A stretch of 64,000 nt of DNA from the NCBI GenBank assembly GCA_965261005.1, contig OZ253376.1, positions 1 through 64,000 of the forward strand. Direction: 5' to 3'. A program made the position numbers. Below, piece by piece: positions 23,001-29,000 of the stretch. Within the stretch, counting starts at the first letter, position 1; every line of letters starts with the position of its first letter. This stretch comes from Deinococcus sp. Lineage in GTDB: Bacteria > Deinococcota > Deinococci > Deinococcales > Deinococcaceae.

Positions 23001-26000
23001 CCCAGATCAGAGCCGATCAGGCGCGGGCCGAAGGGCAGCACGGCCGCCGCCAGCGTCACGCCGAACAGGGCGCTGAGGGGGCCGGCCGGGTACAGCCAGC
23101 GGTCGGCGTGCGGCAGGGCCACATCCTCGCGGGGGGTGTGGCCGACGGGCGGCGAAAGGGCCAGCTCCAGCCAGAGGGTCAGCGCCACGCCGACGGCCAA
23201 AGTCAGCAGCGTGAACAGCGCCCCGCCCCAACTGTTCAGCACTACTCCCACTCTAGCCCGCCCATACGCCAGGCGTAGGCCAGCCCGGCCAGCAAAATGG
23301 CGATAAAGACCAGCATGTCGAAAAAGGCTTCCAGGCCGATGCCCCGGAACACGACCGCCCACGGGTACATGAAGATCATCTCCATGTCAAAGGCGAGAAA
23401 GATCAGCGCGAAGGTGGGGTAGCCGAAGCGGTATTGCTTCCAGGCGGCGGGCAGCTCGAGTTTCTTGACCTTGGGCCGCCACACGGCGACCAGCAAGAGG
23501 GCCAGCCCCAGCATGAGCAGGGCGGCCAAGCCGACGGCGGCGTACATGCTGACGATCATGCAAGACCTCGTAGGACGCGAAGCTTATGTTTTTTCAGGTG
23601 TACTTGAAGACTTCCATCAGCTCGTCCACGATCTCCTGCTCGTCGCCGCGTGCGCTGGCGGTGGCGACGTGCGCCTCCAAATGGCCGCGCAGCACCACGC
23701 CGGCCGCTCCCGTGAGGGCGCCCTGCACGGCCTTGAGCTGGCGCAACACGTCCACGCAGTAGGCGTGCGGGTCTTCGAGCTGGCGCTGAATGCTCTCCAG
23801 GTGGCCCCGCGCGATGGCGAGGCGTCGGGCCGCCTTTTTGCGGGCGTCCTCGGGCATGCAGAGGTGGTGTTCTCCGGCGGCGGCCGTCTCACCCTCCATT
23901 ACAGGTGGGCGATTCGCGCGCTGTACCCCTCTTCCGCCACGGCGTTGATGAGTTGCTGGGGGTCGAGATTGCCCTCTACGACGGCCTTGCCGCTTTTCAA
24001 ATCCACTTGGGCGTCCGTCACGCCGGGCACGCTCCTCAGGGCCTTGGTCACGGCAGTTTGGCAGTGGCCGCAGGTCATGCCGGAAACGTCGAGTTCGGTT
24101 GTATTCATGGGTCTTCCTCCGAAGGCAAATCTACACCCACCCTGGGAGGAGTCAGCATAAATTGTGCCAGATGACTTCCTTAACGAGCTTTTCATTCTCC
24201 ATTTTGCCATCCACCCGGGGGGGAATGGGATAAACGTTGCGCCCGCACCTCCACGTTCGAGCGCGGCCCCGTGGCCGGCTGGACGCTGATCCTAAGCCCG
24301 ACCCCGGAAGGCGAGGTGCGGCAGCTCGGCTGAGCAAGAACCCATAAACCGGGTACCACGCTTGCTCCTCGTGACGTGTGGTCCCTACAGGCGCCAGAAG
24401 AATTCTTTTGAACGTGGGCCACGGCCGAGACCAGGTCGGCCGTGGTCACGAAGTACGCCGCCTACGGCAAACGGTAGGCATAGACAGCACCTTGGCCCAT
24501 GCCGAACTTGCTGGGCAGGCCGGCGCTGAAGTACAGCGTGTTGCCCACCACGCTGAGCGGCGCGCTGATCGAGCCGTGCGCCGAGCTGGTCCACACCTTT
24601 TGCCCGTCCGAGGCGCGGTAGCCGCGAATCTTGCCGTCGAGCGTCCCCACCAGGTACACATCGTTCGAGAGAAAGCCCGCCGTGGTCGTTCCCGCCGGCT
24701 GCGCCTTGAGGTCGGTCCACTTGGCCGTTCCCGTCGCGGGGTCGAGCGCCTTGATGGTGATGGGGTGCTGCGCGGGGTCGAGGTCATAGTTGTATGAGTT
24801 GTTGCTCCACACGTAGATGGTGGCGTCCGGTCCCACCGCCGCCTCCGCGTGGATGCCGCCGCCCTTGCTTCCGTAACCCACCGCCGTCTTCCAGACCAGC
24901 GCGCCCGTCTGCCTATCGAAGGCCCAGTAAATGCCGCTCTTGGAGCCGCCGCCCACCAATTGTTTCATCTGGCCGTTCACGTTCGCCGTAAACAGCTGCG
25001 GCCCCGCGCCGAAGTCGTAGTCCGGCCCGACCGGCTTGGCGGCCAGCCACAAGTCGTTGTTGAAGGTCTGCGTCACCCACTTGGTTTGGCCGCTGCGGGC
25101 GCCTACCGCGACCATCGCGTCCTCCATCTCGCCCGGCGCGCCGTTGTAGCTGTTGCCGGTCGTGAAGAACAGGGTGTCGCTGGCGGGGTCGAGGGCGAAG
25201 GAACTCCACATCGAGGTGCCGTTCTTGTCAGGGGTGGTCAGGTACTTTTCCCAGACGGTATTTCCCGTGCTGGTGTTGAGGGCCACCACCCGGCCGCGCG
25301 AGGTCGCCGTGTAAGGCTTGCCCATCTTTTCCATCATGCCGGAGATCGGCTCGTCCACCGAGGAGACGCCGATGTACGCCAGGCCGTCGGCCGGGTTGAC
25401 CAGCAGGTGGCTGACGCTGCCGGCGTACTGGTCCTGCGGGGCGAAGTCGGTCTTCCACAGCAGCTTGCCCGTATTCTTGTCGAGGGCGAAGGCGTAGCCC
25501 TCGACGCTGGCGACGATGTAGGCGTTCTCCGTCAGGGCGCCGGTGCCAGCGAAGCCATGCCAAGGCCATTCCTTGACCGGCGTCTCCAGCTTGGTCTTCC
25601 ACAGCTGCTTGCCCGTCTGGGCGTCGAGGGCGTAGGCGTTGCCGGCCCAATCGGCCACGAAAACCTTATTGCCGTCGAGTAAGGGCGTAGCAGAAACCTC
25701 GGCGCCCGGCCTGAAGCTCCAGGCCAGCTGCAAGCGCGACACGTTCTGGGTGTTCAGGGCCGTGCTGTCGCTGGCGTGGTCGTTGACAAACTCGTGGTTC
25801 GGCGCCGTCTGCGCCACGGCGAGCGGCGCAGTCAGCAGGGCCAGGCTGACGAGGTGGGCGGGGGTAAATCGAATGTGCTTCATAACTCCTCCTGAAAGTT
25901 GGTCTGGGGCTGTCTTGTAAACGCCGTCAACCTTCTCGACGTTGGTCTCAGTTCATGCGCCCCTGATTGGGCATCTGCTGAGCGGCGTCCTGGCCGATGC

Positions 26001-29000
26001 GCTCCAGCACCGGGCGCCGCGCGAGAATGATCAGGCCGAACCCGACCTTGGCCAGCAAATCGAGAATGGTGTAGAGGGCCGCCTGGGCGCCCTGACCGAT
26101 CAGCGCGAAACCCGCCGTGCCGAGAATCCACACCACCGGGTAGCCGATCCACAGGGCGGCGTTCATGTCGCGCAGGGTGGTGAACAGGCGCCGCTGATCC
26201 TCAGGACGGCCCTGCGCCTTTACGGTGAGGTCGCGGTACAGCAAAGCCAGCACGGCCAGAAAGCCCAGGCAGCTCACCGCGTACCAGATGTAGTTGGTCG
26301 GCTTGCTCGAAAGCTCGGCGATGGCCCCGGTGCCGATCATGAACACGTCTGACAACACCAGCGACAAGGTCAGGCTGGGCGGGGCGTGCACGCTGCGCGC
26401 GATCTGGCTGAGCAGCAGCGGCGTGGTCAATCCCCAGGTGACGTAACGAATCCAGGCGACCGGTCGGCCGTCCAGGGTGACCTCCCCCTGCCCGAGGGCC
26501 AGCATCAGGTACAGCGCCATGGCGATCAAGGGAACGGCGAACAGGCCCACGAGCGACTGCTTGGTGTACTCGTTGGTGGGGCGCAGGGTCTGGGTATAGA
26601 AGTAGAGCACGCCGAGCAACATGCCAAAAAAGCCGATCCAGCGCCACAAGGTCACCGCGTCCATGTCAACACCTCATTTGGGAAAGTCGTAGTGACGTTG
26701 GCGAACAATGCCCGCCTTGGGTTGGTGACCACAGTGGGGCAGGCACACGCTGGCTGAAAGAGAAGCCTTGAGCGGCTATGGGCGAACGGACTCCGAACAT
26801 GACGTGGTTGCGCGCCTCCTCCATCCGACCTCCAGAGCTATCTTCAGGTGCATTCAGGATGCACCTCGGACCATGCTTGAGGACGCCGTGTTCAGCTTCT
26901 GTAAAGGGCCTGCCAACCTTAAGTAGACTTCAAGGCGACAGTTTGCTCTGGTCCACAAAGCGCCCGACCGTGAGGACAGCGGCGCCCGTTTTCGGCAGGG
27001 TCAGGTGGTGGCTGCGGCCAGGCCAAGCGGTCATCAACACCTTTACAGGAACTTAACAGCGCCTCTCTAGCCTGAGGGAGAGGTGAACATTATGCGAACG
27101 GCTGTTTTTACGACCCTGCTCCTGAGCGCCGTCCTGGTCTCTCCCGTCTCAGCCCAGATGAACTCAGCACAGATGAACCACGACACCATGAACATGCCGC
27201 AAAGCATGCCCGGCATGACCCACACGGGAACGGAGGCCAAGGACCTCGCGCAGCTGAAGGGCAAAGCCTTCGACCGCGCCTTTTTGTCCATGATGGTCGT
27301 CCATCATCAGGGCGCCATCGACATGAGCAAGGCCGTCGTCAACAACGTGAGGGACGCCCAGGTCAAGATGTGGGCGAACGACATCATCAAGGTTCAGCAA
27401 CAGGAGATCGGCCAGATGAACACCTGGCTCAGGGCACTCGGCGGCCCCGACAAGAGCGCGCAAAGCGGCATGGCGGGCGAGATGAACACCATGCTCGCGG
27501 TTCTCAAGCGGGACAAGGACAGCGACCGCGCCTTGGTCACGGGCATGTTGCCCCACCACGCCAGCGCGATAGAAATGGCCCGCGTCGCCCTGCAAAACAG
27601 CGACGACGCCCGAATCCTGGGACTCGCCCGTGAAATCATCCGTACCCAGGCCGACGAGATGTACGCCTACCGCCAGTGGCTGCTGAAAAGGGGAAGCTGA
27701 GATTTGCAGAGAGCAGAGAGCCAAAGACAGACGCCCTATGCTCTCTGCGCTGTGGCCTCTGTCAACCCCACCCACCTACTGGTGATCTAGTAAACCCCAC
27801 ATGGCCCAGATCCTGATTGTGGACGACGATCCCGCCATTCTCGAAATTTTGCGCGCGTACCTGCTCAGCGAGGGCCACGGCGTGTTGGAGGCGGCGAGCG
27901 GCGACGGGGCGCGTGAACTCCTGCCGCGTGCGGACCTCGCCATTCTCGACTGGATGCTGCCGGGCGCGAGCGGCCTGGACCTGGCCCGCGAGGCGCGGGG
28001 CGTCGGGCTGGAACTGCCCATCCTGATGCTGACCGCGCGCGGCGAGGAGGCCGACGTGCTGCACGGCTTGGAGGGCGGCGTGGACGACTACGTGATCAAG
28101 CCCTTCAGCCCGCGCGAGGTCATGGCGCGGGTGCGGACCTTGCTGCGGCGGGTCGGCGTGCGGCACACGCTGACCAGCGGCGGGCTGTTCCTCGACGTGC
28201 GCGCCCGCCGGGCCACGCTGAACGGGCGGCCCCTTGAGCTTTCCAAGTTGGAATACGACCTGCTGACCACGCTCGCGCAACATCCCGGTCTGGCTTGGAG
28301 CCGTGAACGGCTGCTGGAACGGGTGTGGGGTGATGTTCCCGGCACCTCACGGGTGGTGGACGTGCACATCACGGGGCTGCGCAAAAAGCTCGGCGACGAT
28401 CCCGAACAGCCCCGCTACATCGAGACCGTGCGCGGTGTCGGCTACCGCTTCAGGGACGCGTGAAGCTCTATGCCCGGCTGTTCCTGTCGCACCTGCTGGT
28501 CATTCTGGTCGCGCTCGGGGCGGTGCTGCTGCTCGCCGAGCTGCTGTCGCCCGCCTTTGTGCGCCACCACGTCGAGCAGATGGTGGCCCTGATCGGCCCC
28601 AGGGGCGCCGGGCTGCGCCCGGACCTTGAGCGCGGCGTGCGCGCGACCCTCACCTCGGTGCTGCTGGCGGCCGTGCCGCTCGCGCTGCTCGCCTCCGCCG
28701 TCACGGCCCTCTACTCCGCCCGCCGGGTGGTGGCGGGCGTGGCGCTGCTGCGCGACGGCAGCCACGCCATCGCCGCCGGCGACTACCGGCGGCGCCTACC
28801 CGAAGCGGGGCGCGTCGAGCTGATCTCCACCGTCGCCCACGAACTCAGGACGCCGCTCTCGACACTGCGCGGCTACGCCGAGGCGATGCGCGACGGCGTG
28901 CTGGCGCCCGAAATCGCCTCAGGCGCCATCGTGCGCGAGACGGCCGCGATGGAGCGGCTGGCACGCGACCTGAGCTTGGTGTCGCGCGTCGAGGCGGGCG

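What a model noticed while it worked through the whole genome (the two positions that open the first line are those of the whole stretch)
25948..26664. A TTQ-motif rhodopsin: member of an undescribed clade next to the cyanobacterial (TSD) halorhodopsins
g03054 (238 aa) is a microbial rhodopsin whose three motif residues (bacteriorhodopsin D85/T89/D96) are Thr-Thr-Gln; the Schiff-base Lys and the D212 counterpart are kept. Its best solved relatives are the cyanobacterial anion pumps SyHR and MrHR (TSD motif). Its 16 closest database relatives (50-61% identical, one from a Deinococcus aetherius plasmid, the rest without organism names) all carry TTQ, whereas the next-nearest sequences are mostly TSD cyanobacterial halorhodopsins. 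With a neutral residue at the primary counter-ion site and a Gln at the donor site (as in NTQ chloride pumps) it is predicted to be a light-driven inward anion pump of a new motif class. The gene sits on the megaplas [...]
Evidence so far: Sequence and Swiss-Prot hits; PDB sequence search with printed alignment: SyHR 7zou E 1e-46, MrHR 6k6i/6xl3 E 1e-43, query RYVTWGLTTPLLLSQ against RYITWFLSTPLLILD; 120 best homologues from the 5.8-billion-protein search aligned and motif columns read: TTQ 18 (the query, its 16 nearest neighbours and one more), TSD 69, DTD 20, other 13. No paper in the library holds 'TTQ motif', or TTQ together with rhodopsin and halorhodopsin. Neighbours: call 13.
(Added by a program. 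Inside this text positions count along the whole contig: contig position 1 is position 1 of the stretch shown here. "Call 12" and the like, gene names such as g00115 and contig names such as C1 are that model's own, and its searches are not shown. The text may have been shortened before it was handed on; [...] marks where a part breaks off. The agent that wrote the report below was given it as the finding of a first reader that could run no searches.)

Follow-up and report, generated by a model that had tools for sequence, protein, structure and literature searches.

The report
Thr-Thr-Gln rhodopsin, probable anion pump
This plasmid-borne gene of a Deinococcus-family bacterium encodes a light-sensitive membrane protein from a small, unnamed sister group of the cyanobacterial chloride pumps; it most likely pumps chloride-type anions into the cell by a partly rebuilt exit route, but nobody has tested it.

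Summary
Window 25948-26664 (-) is an intact 238-aa microbial rhodopsin (Pfam 1.7e-51) with R73, T76, T80, Q87, D202 and K206.

With three more sequences, 21 TTQ proteins form one clade (bootstrap/SH-aLRT 100/99). It is sister to the cyanobacterial halorhodopsins (96/92) and not inside them.

An inward anion pump is the best reading (about 0.7):
- Published assays show Thr-Thr pairs working in Cl- pumps with TTD, TTV and TTG motifs.
- The third motif residue is dispensable in MrHR.
- 22 of 24 retinal-pocket residues equal those of the proven TTV pump.

The cytoplasmic half differs from the sister clade. The His that is invariant there (83/83) is Asn/Thr, the N39-D85-S212 network is L41-Q87-I/V213, and Q36, R90 and D145 are invariant in TTQ only.

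Only 2 of 364 Deinococcota genomes carry the gene, both on secondary replicons with unrelated neighbours. The host has Blh and three other rhodopsins.

No paper in the searchable library mentions a TTQ rhodopsin. Function, ion and expression remain untested. Verdict: a new variant of a known kind, of moderate interest.

The parts
25948..26664 (-). TTQ-motif microbial rhodopsin gene (238 aa plus stop)
   Evidence: ORF. Pfam PF01036 at 1.7e-51. AlphaFold2 model with pLDDT 95.2, seven helices plus a B-C beta-hairpin. Fold match to MrHR 6k6k at rmsd 1.3 A, TM 0.88/0.96.
26404..26448 (-). Helix C motif stretch R73-Y-V-T76-W-G-L-T80-T-P-L-L-L-S-Q87. Codons: R73 26446-26448, T76 26437-26439, T80 26425-26427, Q87 26404-26406.
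   Evidence: Sequence read directly and aligned to SyHR R71/T74/S78/D85. T76, T80, Q87 and R73 are invariant in 21 of 21 TTQ proteins.
26047..26061 (-). Helix G D202-L-L-A-K206: the counterpart of BR D212 and the Schiff-base lysine
   Evidence: Aligned to SyHR D201 and K205. Invariant in all 120 aligned proteins.
26670..26675 (-). Ribosome-binding-site-like GAGGTG, 5 nt before the ATG
   Evidence: Sequence read directly. No sigma-70-like promoter was found by the consensus scan.
24462..25883 (-). Downstream gene, possibly co-transcribed: a 473-aa secreted PQQ-like beta-propeller protein. It starts 64 bp after the rhodopsin stop and is preceded by AGGAGG.
   Evidence: Pfam PQQ/PQQ_2 at 1.6e-28 / 3e-28. 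No terminator-like site in the 64-bp gap. It is not found next to the other TTQ genes, so it is probably not a functional partner.

Best explanation
The gene encodes a retinal-binding, light-driven inward anion pump, most likely for Cl-/Br- and possibly also larger or divalent anions. It belongs to a small, unnamed clade that is sister to the cyanobacterial halorhodopsins.

Inferred mechanism:
- In the dark an anion sits beside the protonated Schiff base of K206. The hydroxyls of T76 and T80 and a water bridged to D202 hold it, and R73 supplies positive charge below it.
- Retinal isomerisation drives the anion past the Schiff base into the cytoplasmic half, and a new anion enters from outside.
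- The cytoplasmic exit is built differently from MrHR/SyHR. The His that those proteins use is Asn here, and the Asn-Asp-Ser network is Leu-Gln-Ile.
- Clade-specific polar residues Q36, N86 (Ser in this protein), Q87, R90 and D145 are proposed to line or gate the exit.

Shown: the fold, the residues, the clade and the precedents. Inferred: anion binding, transport direction, ion selectivity and the role of the clade-specific residues.
For: Binding-site residues are conserved.
- T76, T80, R73, D202 and K206 are invariant in 21/21 TTQ proteins.
- They align with SyHR T74 and S78, which coordinate Cl- in the crystal, and with R71, D201 and K205.

A Thr-Thr pair works in anion pumps.
- BacHRs with TTD (Rubrivirga marina) and TTV (Myxosarcina sp. 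GI1) motifs alkalinised E. coli suspensions in light. CCCP enhanced the signal and it was lost without Cl- (PMC7979833, passages).
- TTG glycylhalorhodopsins pump Cl-, Br- and SO4 2-. The Cl- ion is H-bonded to T83 and T87; T83A and R80Q are dead and T87A keeps one third of activity (PMC11532467).
- BR D85T becomes a Cl- pump (PMC8756000).

The third motif residue is permissive: MrHR D85N and D85A pump normally.

The retinal pocket matches a proven pump. Of 24 pocket positions, 22 equal the Myxosarcina TTV pump, the differences being V/I and I/L. P0130 reproduces the published string 24/24, which validates the mapping.

Phylogeny: TTQ and the cyanobacterial HRs form one clade (96/92) in which every member has Thr at the first position. 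This is consistent with one origin of a neutral counter-ion site.

The predicted structure is nearest MrHR/SyHR.

The protein stands alone. No transducer or other conserved neighbour occurs in the three contexts that hold neighbouring genes. This suits a pump more than a sensor.

Chromophore supply is plausible: Blh and phytoene synthase are in the genome.

The extracellular Glu, whose removal lets MrHR pump sulfate, is A184 here and K/A/P/T/S across the clade.
Against: - There is no experimental datum for any TTQ protein.
- In NpHR the Ser-to-Thr change at the second motif position distorts the photocycle and abolishes pumping (PMC8756000, cited there as unpublished). Thr-Thr is therefore not tolerated in every scaffold.
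- A natural TSV member of the sister clade (Cyanothece PCC 7425) showed no transport in E. coli. Motif plus clade does not guarantee activity.
- The His proposed as the Cl- release site in SyHR/MrHR, invariant in 83/83 sister-clade proteins, is Asn/Thr in TTQ. The exit route is therefore unknown.
- Both Glu residues of the BR-type extracellular pair are lost (A184, Q194).
- A CrtY-type lycopene cyclase was not found, and the alternative type scores only 27.7 bits against a cut-off of 27. Beta-carotene supply is not fully shown; the genome is 92% complete.
Confidence: 0.7

Rival explanations
1. It is a photoactive rhodopsin that transports nothing useful: a slow-cycling sensor or regulator, or an anion-binding pigment with negligible turnover.
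For: The host already has three other rhodopsins, one of them of the xenorhodopsin/ASR-like type with Pro at the D212 position, so light sensing is part of its biology. A natural TSV protein of the sister clade showed no transport in E. coli, and MrHR itself is described as a weak pump with a 5.6-s last intermediate. The cytoplasmic surface carries clade-invariant charged residues (R90, D145) that could equally be a docking surface.
Against: No transducer-like or signalling gene is conserved beside TTQ genes: the neighbours differ in every locus that holds any. There is no C-terminal output domain; the protein ends 23 residues after helix G plus a short helix. All residues needed for anion binding are invariant.
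Confidence: 0.13
2. It is a proton transporter (inward or outward) that uses D202 as the sole counter-ion and acceptor, rather than an anion pump.
For: D202 and R73 are kept. MrHR needs only T74D to become an outward H+ pump, so this scaffold is close to H+ pumps. The nearest outgroup is the proton-pumping cyanorhodopsins.
Against: All outward H+ pumps keep a carboxylate at the D85 position (PMC11532467 introduction); here it is Thr in 21/21. There is no carboxylate at the D96 position (Gln in 21/21). Both extracellular release-group Glu residues are lost. This combination is not among the known inward H+ pump motifs listed in the papers read.
Confidence: 0.08
3. It is a decaying or unexpressed passenger gene on mobile DNA with no present function.
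For: It sits on accessory replicons among integrase, transposase and toxin-antitoxin genes. Only 2 of 364 Deinococcota genomes have it.
Against: The frame is intact with a good ribosome-binding site. GC3 is host-like. Fifty-four columns are invariant over 19 sequences that are only about 50% identical overall, which shows purifying selection on the clade.
Confidence: 0.05

Closest known systems
[quoted passage not shown]
   Same: Best sequence matches (E 1e-46 to 1e-43, 38% identity) and best fold matches (rmsd 1.3-1.5 A). Sister clade with support 96/92. Thr at the first motif position, plus R, D and K, are kept. The retinal pocket is almost identical (22/24 to the TTV member). The size is similar, about 235 aa.
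   Different: It lies outside that clade; each clade is supported at 100. The second residue is Thr (21/21) against Ser (81/83). The third is Gln (21/21) against Asp (70/83) or V/I/L. His167 (83/83) becomes Asn/Thr, N39 becomes Leu, S212 becomes Ile/Val, E192 becomes Gln. Q36, R90 and D145 are invariant in TTQ only. The known hosts are Deinococcaceae with high-GC DNA, not cyanobacteria: 0 of 401 sampled cyanobacterial genomes scored in the TTQ range.
Glycylhalorhodopsins (TTG motif; SsGHR, PDB 8xx8; PMC11532467)
   Same: Both have the Thr-Thr anion-binding pair with a non-carboxylate third residue, and both are stand-alone proteins; the GHR hosts are soil bacteria. The TTQ-invariant Q36 aligns with SsGHR Q43, which lines that protein's hydrophilic cytoplasmic release cavity. 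8xx8 is fold hit rank 9.
   Different: The lineage differs: the GHR representative P0135 sits inside a DTG/DTA clade (100/96), far from TTQ. GHR has Gly, which opens a cavity, where TTQ has Gln. GHR keeps the extracellular Glu (E198) where TTQ has A/K/P/T/S.
NTQ chloride pumps (ClR, e.g. Nonlabens marinus R3)
   Same: Thr at the second motif position, Gln at the third and a neutral first residue.
   Different: The first residue is Asn there. [quoted passage not shown] No NTQ sequence is among the roughly 240 nearest proteins examined. The shared Gln is therefore convergent at best.
Bacteriorhodopsin D85T mutant (effectively a TTD motif)
   Same: A Thr-Thr pair on a BR-type scaffold converts an H+ pump into a Cl- pump.
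   Different: It is an engineered protein and keeps D96 and the Glu194/Glu204 pair.
Cyanorhodopsins (DTD; N2098R, PDB 6lm0)
   Same: They are the next-nearest clade and have the same fold.
   Different: They are proton pumps with Asp at both the first and third motif positions.

Membership tests
Microbial (type-1) rhodopsins, Pfam PF01036 | Seven-helix fold matching the family profile | tested here: met
   PF01036 at E 1.7e-51, positions 2-219 of 224. The model has pLDDT 95.2 and seven helices. There are 365 PDB matches at E<=0.001, and all those listed are rhodopsins.
Microbial (type-1) rhodopsins, Pfam PF01036 | Schiff-base lysine in helix G and an aromatic retinal pocket | tested here: met
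   K206 is invariant. All 24 pocket positions are occupied by residues seen in working pumps, and 22/24 equal the Myxosarcina TTV pump.
Microbial (type-1) rhodopsins, Pfam PF01036 | Binds retinal and is photoactive | not testable with these tools
   This needs expression and spectroscopy. The genome has Blh.
Anion-pumping rhodopsins (functional class) | Non-protonatable polar residue at the BR D85 position | tested here: met
   T76, in 21/21 of the clade. The criterion is as stated in PMC11532467.
Anion-pumping rhodopsins (functional class) | Hydroxyl residue at the BR T89 position, with Arg (R82) and Asp (D212) kept around the anion site | tested here: met
   T80, R73 and D202 are invariant. 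The same residues coordinate Cl- in SyHR and SsGHR.
Anion-pumping rhodopsins (functional class) | Anion bound in the dark state; light-driven inward anion transport; no M intermediate | not testable with these tools
Cyanobacterial halorhodopsins (MrHR/SyHR clade) | Falls inside the clade in a phylogeny | tested here: not met
   It is sister to the clade, not a member: CyHR 100/100, TTQ 100/99, the union 96/92 (the quick tree agrees).
Cyanobacterial halorhodopsins (MrHR/SyHR clade) | T-S-(D/V/I/L) motif | tested here: not met
   TTQ. Within the CyHR-like set the second residue is Ser in 81/83, and the third is never Gln.
Cyanobacterial halorhodopsins (MrHR/SyHR clade) | Cytoplasmic His (SyHR H167 / MrHR H166) and the N39-D85-S212 network | tested here: not met
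   His is present in 83/83 CyHR-like proteins against N17/T4 in TTQ. N39 becomes L (21/21) and S212 becomes I/V (21/21).
Cyanobacterial halorhodopsins (MrHR/SyHR clade) | Trimeric assembly | not tested
   No complex prediction was run.
Glycylhalorhodopsins (TTG) | Gly at the third motif position and membership of the GHR lineage | tested here: not met
   Gln87. The GHR representative P0135 lies in another clade.
NTQ chloride pumps | Asn at the first motif position and membership of the NaR/ClR lineage | tested here: not met
   Thr76. No NTQ protein is among the nearest roughly 240 sequences, and none is among the 60 best PDB sequence hits shown.

The most novel reading that the evidence does not exclude
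TTQ rhodopsins are a separate natural family of anion pumps. They kept the halorhodopsin-type uptake and binding site but evolved their own cytoplasmic release pathway: Q36, N86, Q87, R90 and D145 replace the His167 and Asn-Asp-Ser elements of the cyanobacterial pumps. Because the extracellular Glu gate is missing (Ala, Lys, Pro, Thr or Ser instead), they may accept larger or divalent anions such as sulfate or nitrate. They travel on plasmids among high-GC bacteria, where light-driven anion uptake might help against osmotic or desiccation stress.
Probability: 0.4. Interest if true: 0.65.

Novelty: new variant of a known kind. Interest (0 to 1): 0.55.

Why it matters
The papers read here describe anion-pumping rhodopsins from four natural groups: archaeal HR, NTQ ClR, cyanobacterial/bacterial HR and the TTG GHRs. 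Each new group has taught something about how an anion is released to the cytoplasm and what sets ion selectivity, and these pumps are used as optogenetic silencers.

The TTQ clade is a natural experiment placed right next to MrHR/SyHR. The binding site is the same, but the exit half is different and the third motif residue is that of the unrelated NTQ pumps. Comparing the two sister clades could show which cytoplasmic residues really matter.

It would also be, as far as the searches here reach, the first halorhodopsin-type pump family tied to Deinococcaceae plasmids. The host carries four rhodopsins of four different types, which makes it an attractive organism for studying how a non-phototroph uses light.

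The finding is incremental rather than surprising, because TTD, TTV and TTG pumps already show that the Thr-Thr site works.

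Tried and rejected
- **NCBIfam:** no family matched.
- **Pattern scan of genome contigs with the single protein:** it returned only distant relatives, cyanobacterial HRs and haloarchaeal BRs at 29-42% identity. 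The close ones were found with the genome search instead.
- **Metagenome scan with the clade alignment:** it gave only four TTQ contigs of 1.0-4.8 kb (GC 73-76%). Their neighbours are an antitoxin, a PIN-like domain, an amidohydrolase and an amine-oxidase fragment, with no shared context.
- **Copper link considered and rejected as probably incidental.** In the window the gene is embedded in CsoR-CopZ ... DUF305, a two-component system, DUF326, DUF4396, Mn-catalase and CopA. The D. aetherius homologue instead sits among integrase, P450, succinate-semialdehyde dehydrogenase, GGDEF/HD-GYP and VapBC genes.
- **PQQ beta-propeller gene as a partner:** not conserved elsewhere, so rejected.
- **Expression:** no RNA holder is listed. 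Laying the two coded DNA runs gave contigs only. One identical contig spans 24070-34221 in X1, and X2 is fragmentary at low depth, so nothing can be concluded.
- **Organism names of the other clade members:** none were given by the sources.
- **Earlier scan notes:** none.
- **Promoter scan:** 0 sigma-70-like sites. Deinococcal promoters may not fit the consensus.
- **Model coordinates:** the tools give none, so whether Q36, Q87, R90 and D145 touch each other could not be measured.
- **Trimer prediction:** not run.
- **A mis-formed call:** one search gave a locus where a genome handle was required. It was corrected as the tool advised.

Full report
**1. The observation**

The ORF at window 25948..26664 (- strand) is real and intact. 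It has 238 codons, an ATG start and a GAGGTG ribosome-binding-site-like hexamer 5 nt upstream. Its GC3 is 0.90, like the surrounding genes.

It matches Pfam Bac_rhodopsin at E 1.7e-51 and no NCBIfam model. Against solved structures the best sequence matches are:
- SyHR 7zou, 1.1e-46;
- MrHR 6k6i/6xl3, 6.9e-44 / 9.3e-44;
- two chains (6lm0, 6lm1) at 1.6e-43 and 2.5e-43, which the fold search names as cyanorhodopsins.

The printed alignment puts RYVTWGLTTPLLLSQ on SyHR RYITWFLSTPLLILD. This gives R73, T76, T80, Q87, D202 and K206 in the protein's own numbering.

Of the 120 best proteins from the 5.8-billion-protein search, 18 are TTQ (the query, its 16 nearest neighbours at 50-61% identity, and P0019). 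Another 69 are TSD, 20 are DTD and 13 are other. A score gap from 224 to 195 bits separates the 16 neighbours from everything else.

**2. How big and how separate the group is**

The exhaustive search of 1.84 billion 50%-identity representatives found only two representatives of the group. P0002 scores 290 bits and P0121 197 bits, and the next hit is a DTD protein. Metagenome contigs added two further TTQ sequences, L037 and L039.

Nineteen members aligned together share 54 invariant columns at 51% mean column identity.

Trees:
- In a quick maximum-likelihood tree of 97 rhodopsins the 21 TTQ rows form one clade (SH-aLRT 99). It lies beside the TSD/TSx clade (100), and the joint node has support 89.
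- In a careful tree of 57 rows (40 rows removed: 12 long branches, 28 near-duplicates) TTQ is 100/99 and the cyanobacterial-HR clade 100/100.
- The two together are 96/92. A cyanorhodopsin-like DTD clade follows at weak support, 63/85.
- The window's protein and the D. aetherius protein are sisters (97/93).
- The TTG glycylhalorhodopsin representative P0135 lies far away, inside a DTG/DTA clade (100/96). Its Thr-Thr pair therefore arose independently.

**3. Who carries it**

The window is the start of contig C2 of a two-contig, 3.27-Mb genome that is 92% complete. C2 is 311,557 bp and has its own ParB. Its first 64 kb are accessory in character: integrase fragments, a Tn3 transposase, metal-resistance genes and sugar-modifying enzymes.

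- In the same family, 2 of 125 genomes have a TTQ-type gene.
- In the phylum, 2 of 364 score in the TTQ range (383 and 372 bits). The next two (214 and 191 bits) are TSV-motif proteins of the sister clade, and the rest are xenorhodopsin-like DTA/DTS proteins with Pro at the D212 position.
- The second carrier's contig has the length of D. aetherius plasmid pDAETH-2 (577,691 bp). There the gene is annotated only as 'bacteriorhodopsin'.
- In 401 sampled cyanobacterial genomes, 10 had matches. All were in the sister-clade score range, with a best of 242 bits.
- The other members come from unnamed metagenomic contigs. The four contigs that were fetched have 73-76% GC.

**4. Context**

In the window the gene lies in a metal-stress island: CsoR, CopZ, a PQQ beta-propeller protein, then the rhodopsin, followed by DUF305, a response regulator and histidine kinase, DUF326, DUF4396, Mn-catalase and CopA.

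It may be co-transcribed with the PQQ-propeller gene. The gap is 64 bp, no terminator was found, and a strong RBS precedes that gene.

None of this recurs elsewhere. The D. aetherius gene lies among integrase, P450, succinate-semialdehyde dehydrogenase, a GGDEF/HD-GYP protein and VapBC. The metagenomic contigs show toxin-antitoxin pieces and an amidohydrolase. I therefore treat the copper context as incidental and the protein as stand-alone.

**5. Can it get retinal?**

The chromosome encodes a Blh-type beta-carotene dioxygenase next to a DTG rhodopsin, and a phytoene synthase. No RPE65-type oxygenase was found. No CrtY-type cyclase was found either, and a heterodimeric-type cyclase domain scores marginally, 27.7 bits against a cut-off of 27. 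With four rhodopsin genes in the genome, a working retinal supply is likely but not fully shown.

**6. What it most likely does**

The literature read here gives direct precedents.
- In SyHR the Cl- ion is held by T74 and S78 and a water bound to the Schiff base and D201 (PMC9617919, passages).
- The third motif residue is dispensable in MrHR: D85N and D85A pump normally. BR D85T pumps Cl- (PMC8756000, passages).
- BacHRs with TTD and TTV motifs were shown to be Cl- pumps (PMC7979833, passages).
- The TTG glycylhalorhodopsins pump Cl-, Br- and SO4 2-. The Cl- is H-bonded to T83 and T87; T83A and R80Q are inactive and T87A keeps a third of activity (PMC11532467, abstract, passages and section 6).

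The query keeps every one of these residues, and they are invariant in 21/21 of the clade.

Using the 24 retinal-neighbour positions of PMC7979833 Table S4, the query equals the proven Myxosarcina TTV pump at 22 of 24 positions. The mapping was validated because P0130 gives the published string 24/24.

The AlphaFold2 model is confident (pLDDT 95.2, pTM 0.90) and superposes on MrHR at 1.3 A.

I therefore put about 0.7 on a light-driven inward anion pump.

**7. Where it differs from its sister clade**

Comparing 21 TTQ proteins with 83 sister-clade proteins:

| Position (query numbering) | Sister clade (n=83) | TTQ (n=21) |
|---|---|---|
| 168 (SyHR H167) | His 83/83 | Asn 17 / Thr 4 |
| 41 (SyHR N39) | N76 | L21 |
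| 213 (SyHR S212) | S74 / A9 | I11 / V10 |
| 36 | I66 | Q20 |
| 86 | L80 | N17 |
| 87 | D70 | Q21 |
| 90 | F65 / Y15 | R21 |
| 145 | P71 | D21 |
| 184 (MrHR E182) | T56 / S17 / E10 | K9 / A6 / P3 / T2 / S1 |
| 194 (MrHR E192) | E78 | Q18 |

- His167 is the residue the SyHR paper proposes as the Cl- release site. N39 and S212 are the partners of D85 in SyHR.
- By the model's helix limits, all TTQ-specific residues at 36, 86, 87, 90 and 145 lie in the cytoplasmic half.
- Q36 aligns with SsGHR Q43, which lines that pump's cytoplasmic cavity.
- On the outside, MrHR E182 is the residue whose removal allows sulfate pumping.

These differences suggest a different release route and possibly a broader anion range. 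This is inference.

**8. Evidence against, and rivals**

- In NpHR the Ser-to-Thr change at the second position abolishes pumping.
- A natural TSV protein did not transport in E. coli.
- No expression data exist; no RNA holder is listed, which is reported only as tried.

The rivals are a non-transporting photoreceptor (0.13), a proton transporter using D202 (0.08) and a silent passenger gene (0.05).

**9. Novelty**

Full-text searches for TTQ with rhodopsin(s), for 'Thr-Thr-Gln', 'TTQ motif' and similar, and for D. aetherius with rhodopsin found nothing relevant. The four rhodopsin papers read contain 0 occurrences where TTQ was searched. The 3,022-entry table of PMC7979833 has 0 TTQ (one supplementary PDF could not be read). 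Subscription journals and curated catalogues were not searchable.

The clade is thus unnamed as far as I can see. Its function class is known, and three other Thr-Thr motifs are already proven pumps. I rate it a new variant of a known kind, with interest 0.55.

Noticed in passing
G000:C1:2538230-2538880 (+) (L022 1498-2196); G000:C1:2624146-2624814 (-) (L024 1447-2226); G000:C1:1857591-1858316 (-) (L025 1429-2292): The host genome has three more rhodopsin genes of three other types. One is DTA with Pro at the D212 position (xenorhodopsin/ASR-like signature). One is DTA with Asp kept. One is a 287-aa DTG protein directly beside a Blh beta-carotene dioxygenase (L025 324-1268). That makes four rhodopsins in a 3.3-Mb Deinococcaceae genome.
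   Followed up: partly
window 23594-38185: A metal/oxidative-stress island surrounds the rhodopsin: CsoR-type repressor, CopZ-like HMA protein, PQQ beta-propeller, DUF305, an OmpR-type regulator plus histidine kinase, a Cys-rich DUF326 protein, a DUF4396 protein, Mn-catalase and a CopA-type P-type ATPase. GC is lower here (0.625-0.64 at 24-28 kb against 0.68-0.70 on the flanks).
   Followed up: partly
window 16300-23559 (-): A complex-I-like membrane-arm gene set (matches to NuoA, NuoH, NuoK, NuoL, NuoM and NuoN families) lies directly downstream of csoR/copZ on the secondary replicon. No peripheral-arm genes are visible in the window. A Tn3-family transposase lies next to it at 14288-15751.
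   Followed up: no
L045 1501-2424 (-) (G359:C6) and L046 1492-2229 (+) (G358:C4): Two other Deinococcota genomes (same order, another family) carry TSV-motif halorhodopsin-like genes. In the trees L045 falls inside the 'cyanobacterial' HR clade, which is therefore not restricted to cyanobacteria.
   Followed up: partly
P0019 and P0121 (alignment A2, columns about 111-134): A deep-branching TTQ pair has an insert of about 23 residues in the B-C loop. It keeps Glu at the position of MrHR E192, where the other TTQ proteins have Gln.
   Followed up: no
window 5925-10290 (-): Three consecutive genes each carry two PG_binding_1 peptidoglycan-binding repeats; the first also has a GH43 domain. They look like tandem paralogues.
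   Followed up: no
whole genome G000: No CrtY/CrtL-type lycopene cyclase (PF05834) was found, although the control rings in D. radiodurans. There is only a marginal heterodimeric-type cyclase hit at C1:2246775-2247038 (27.7 bits). How this organism makes beta-carotene for Blh is not clear; the genome is 92% complete.
   Followed up: partly
window 60033-61883 (+): A 616-aa ORF combines Fer4_20/Pyr_redox_2 domains at the N-terminus with an aldehyde dehydrogenase domain. It may be an over-long ORF call across two genes, or a real fusion.
   Followed up: no
L059 5577-8681 (NZ_AP026562.1 140798-143902): In D. aetherius a cytochrome P450 and a succinate-semialdehyde (aldehyde) dehydrogenase lie just upstream of the TTQ rhodopsin, next to a tyrosine recombinase. 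No link to retinal metabolism was tested.
   Followed up: no
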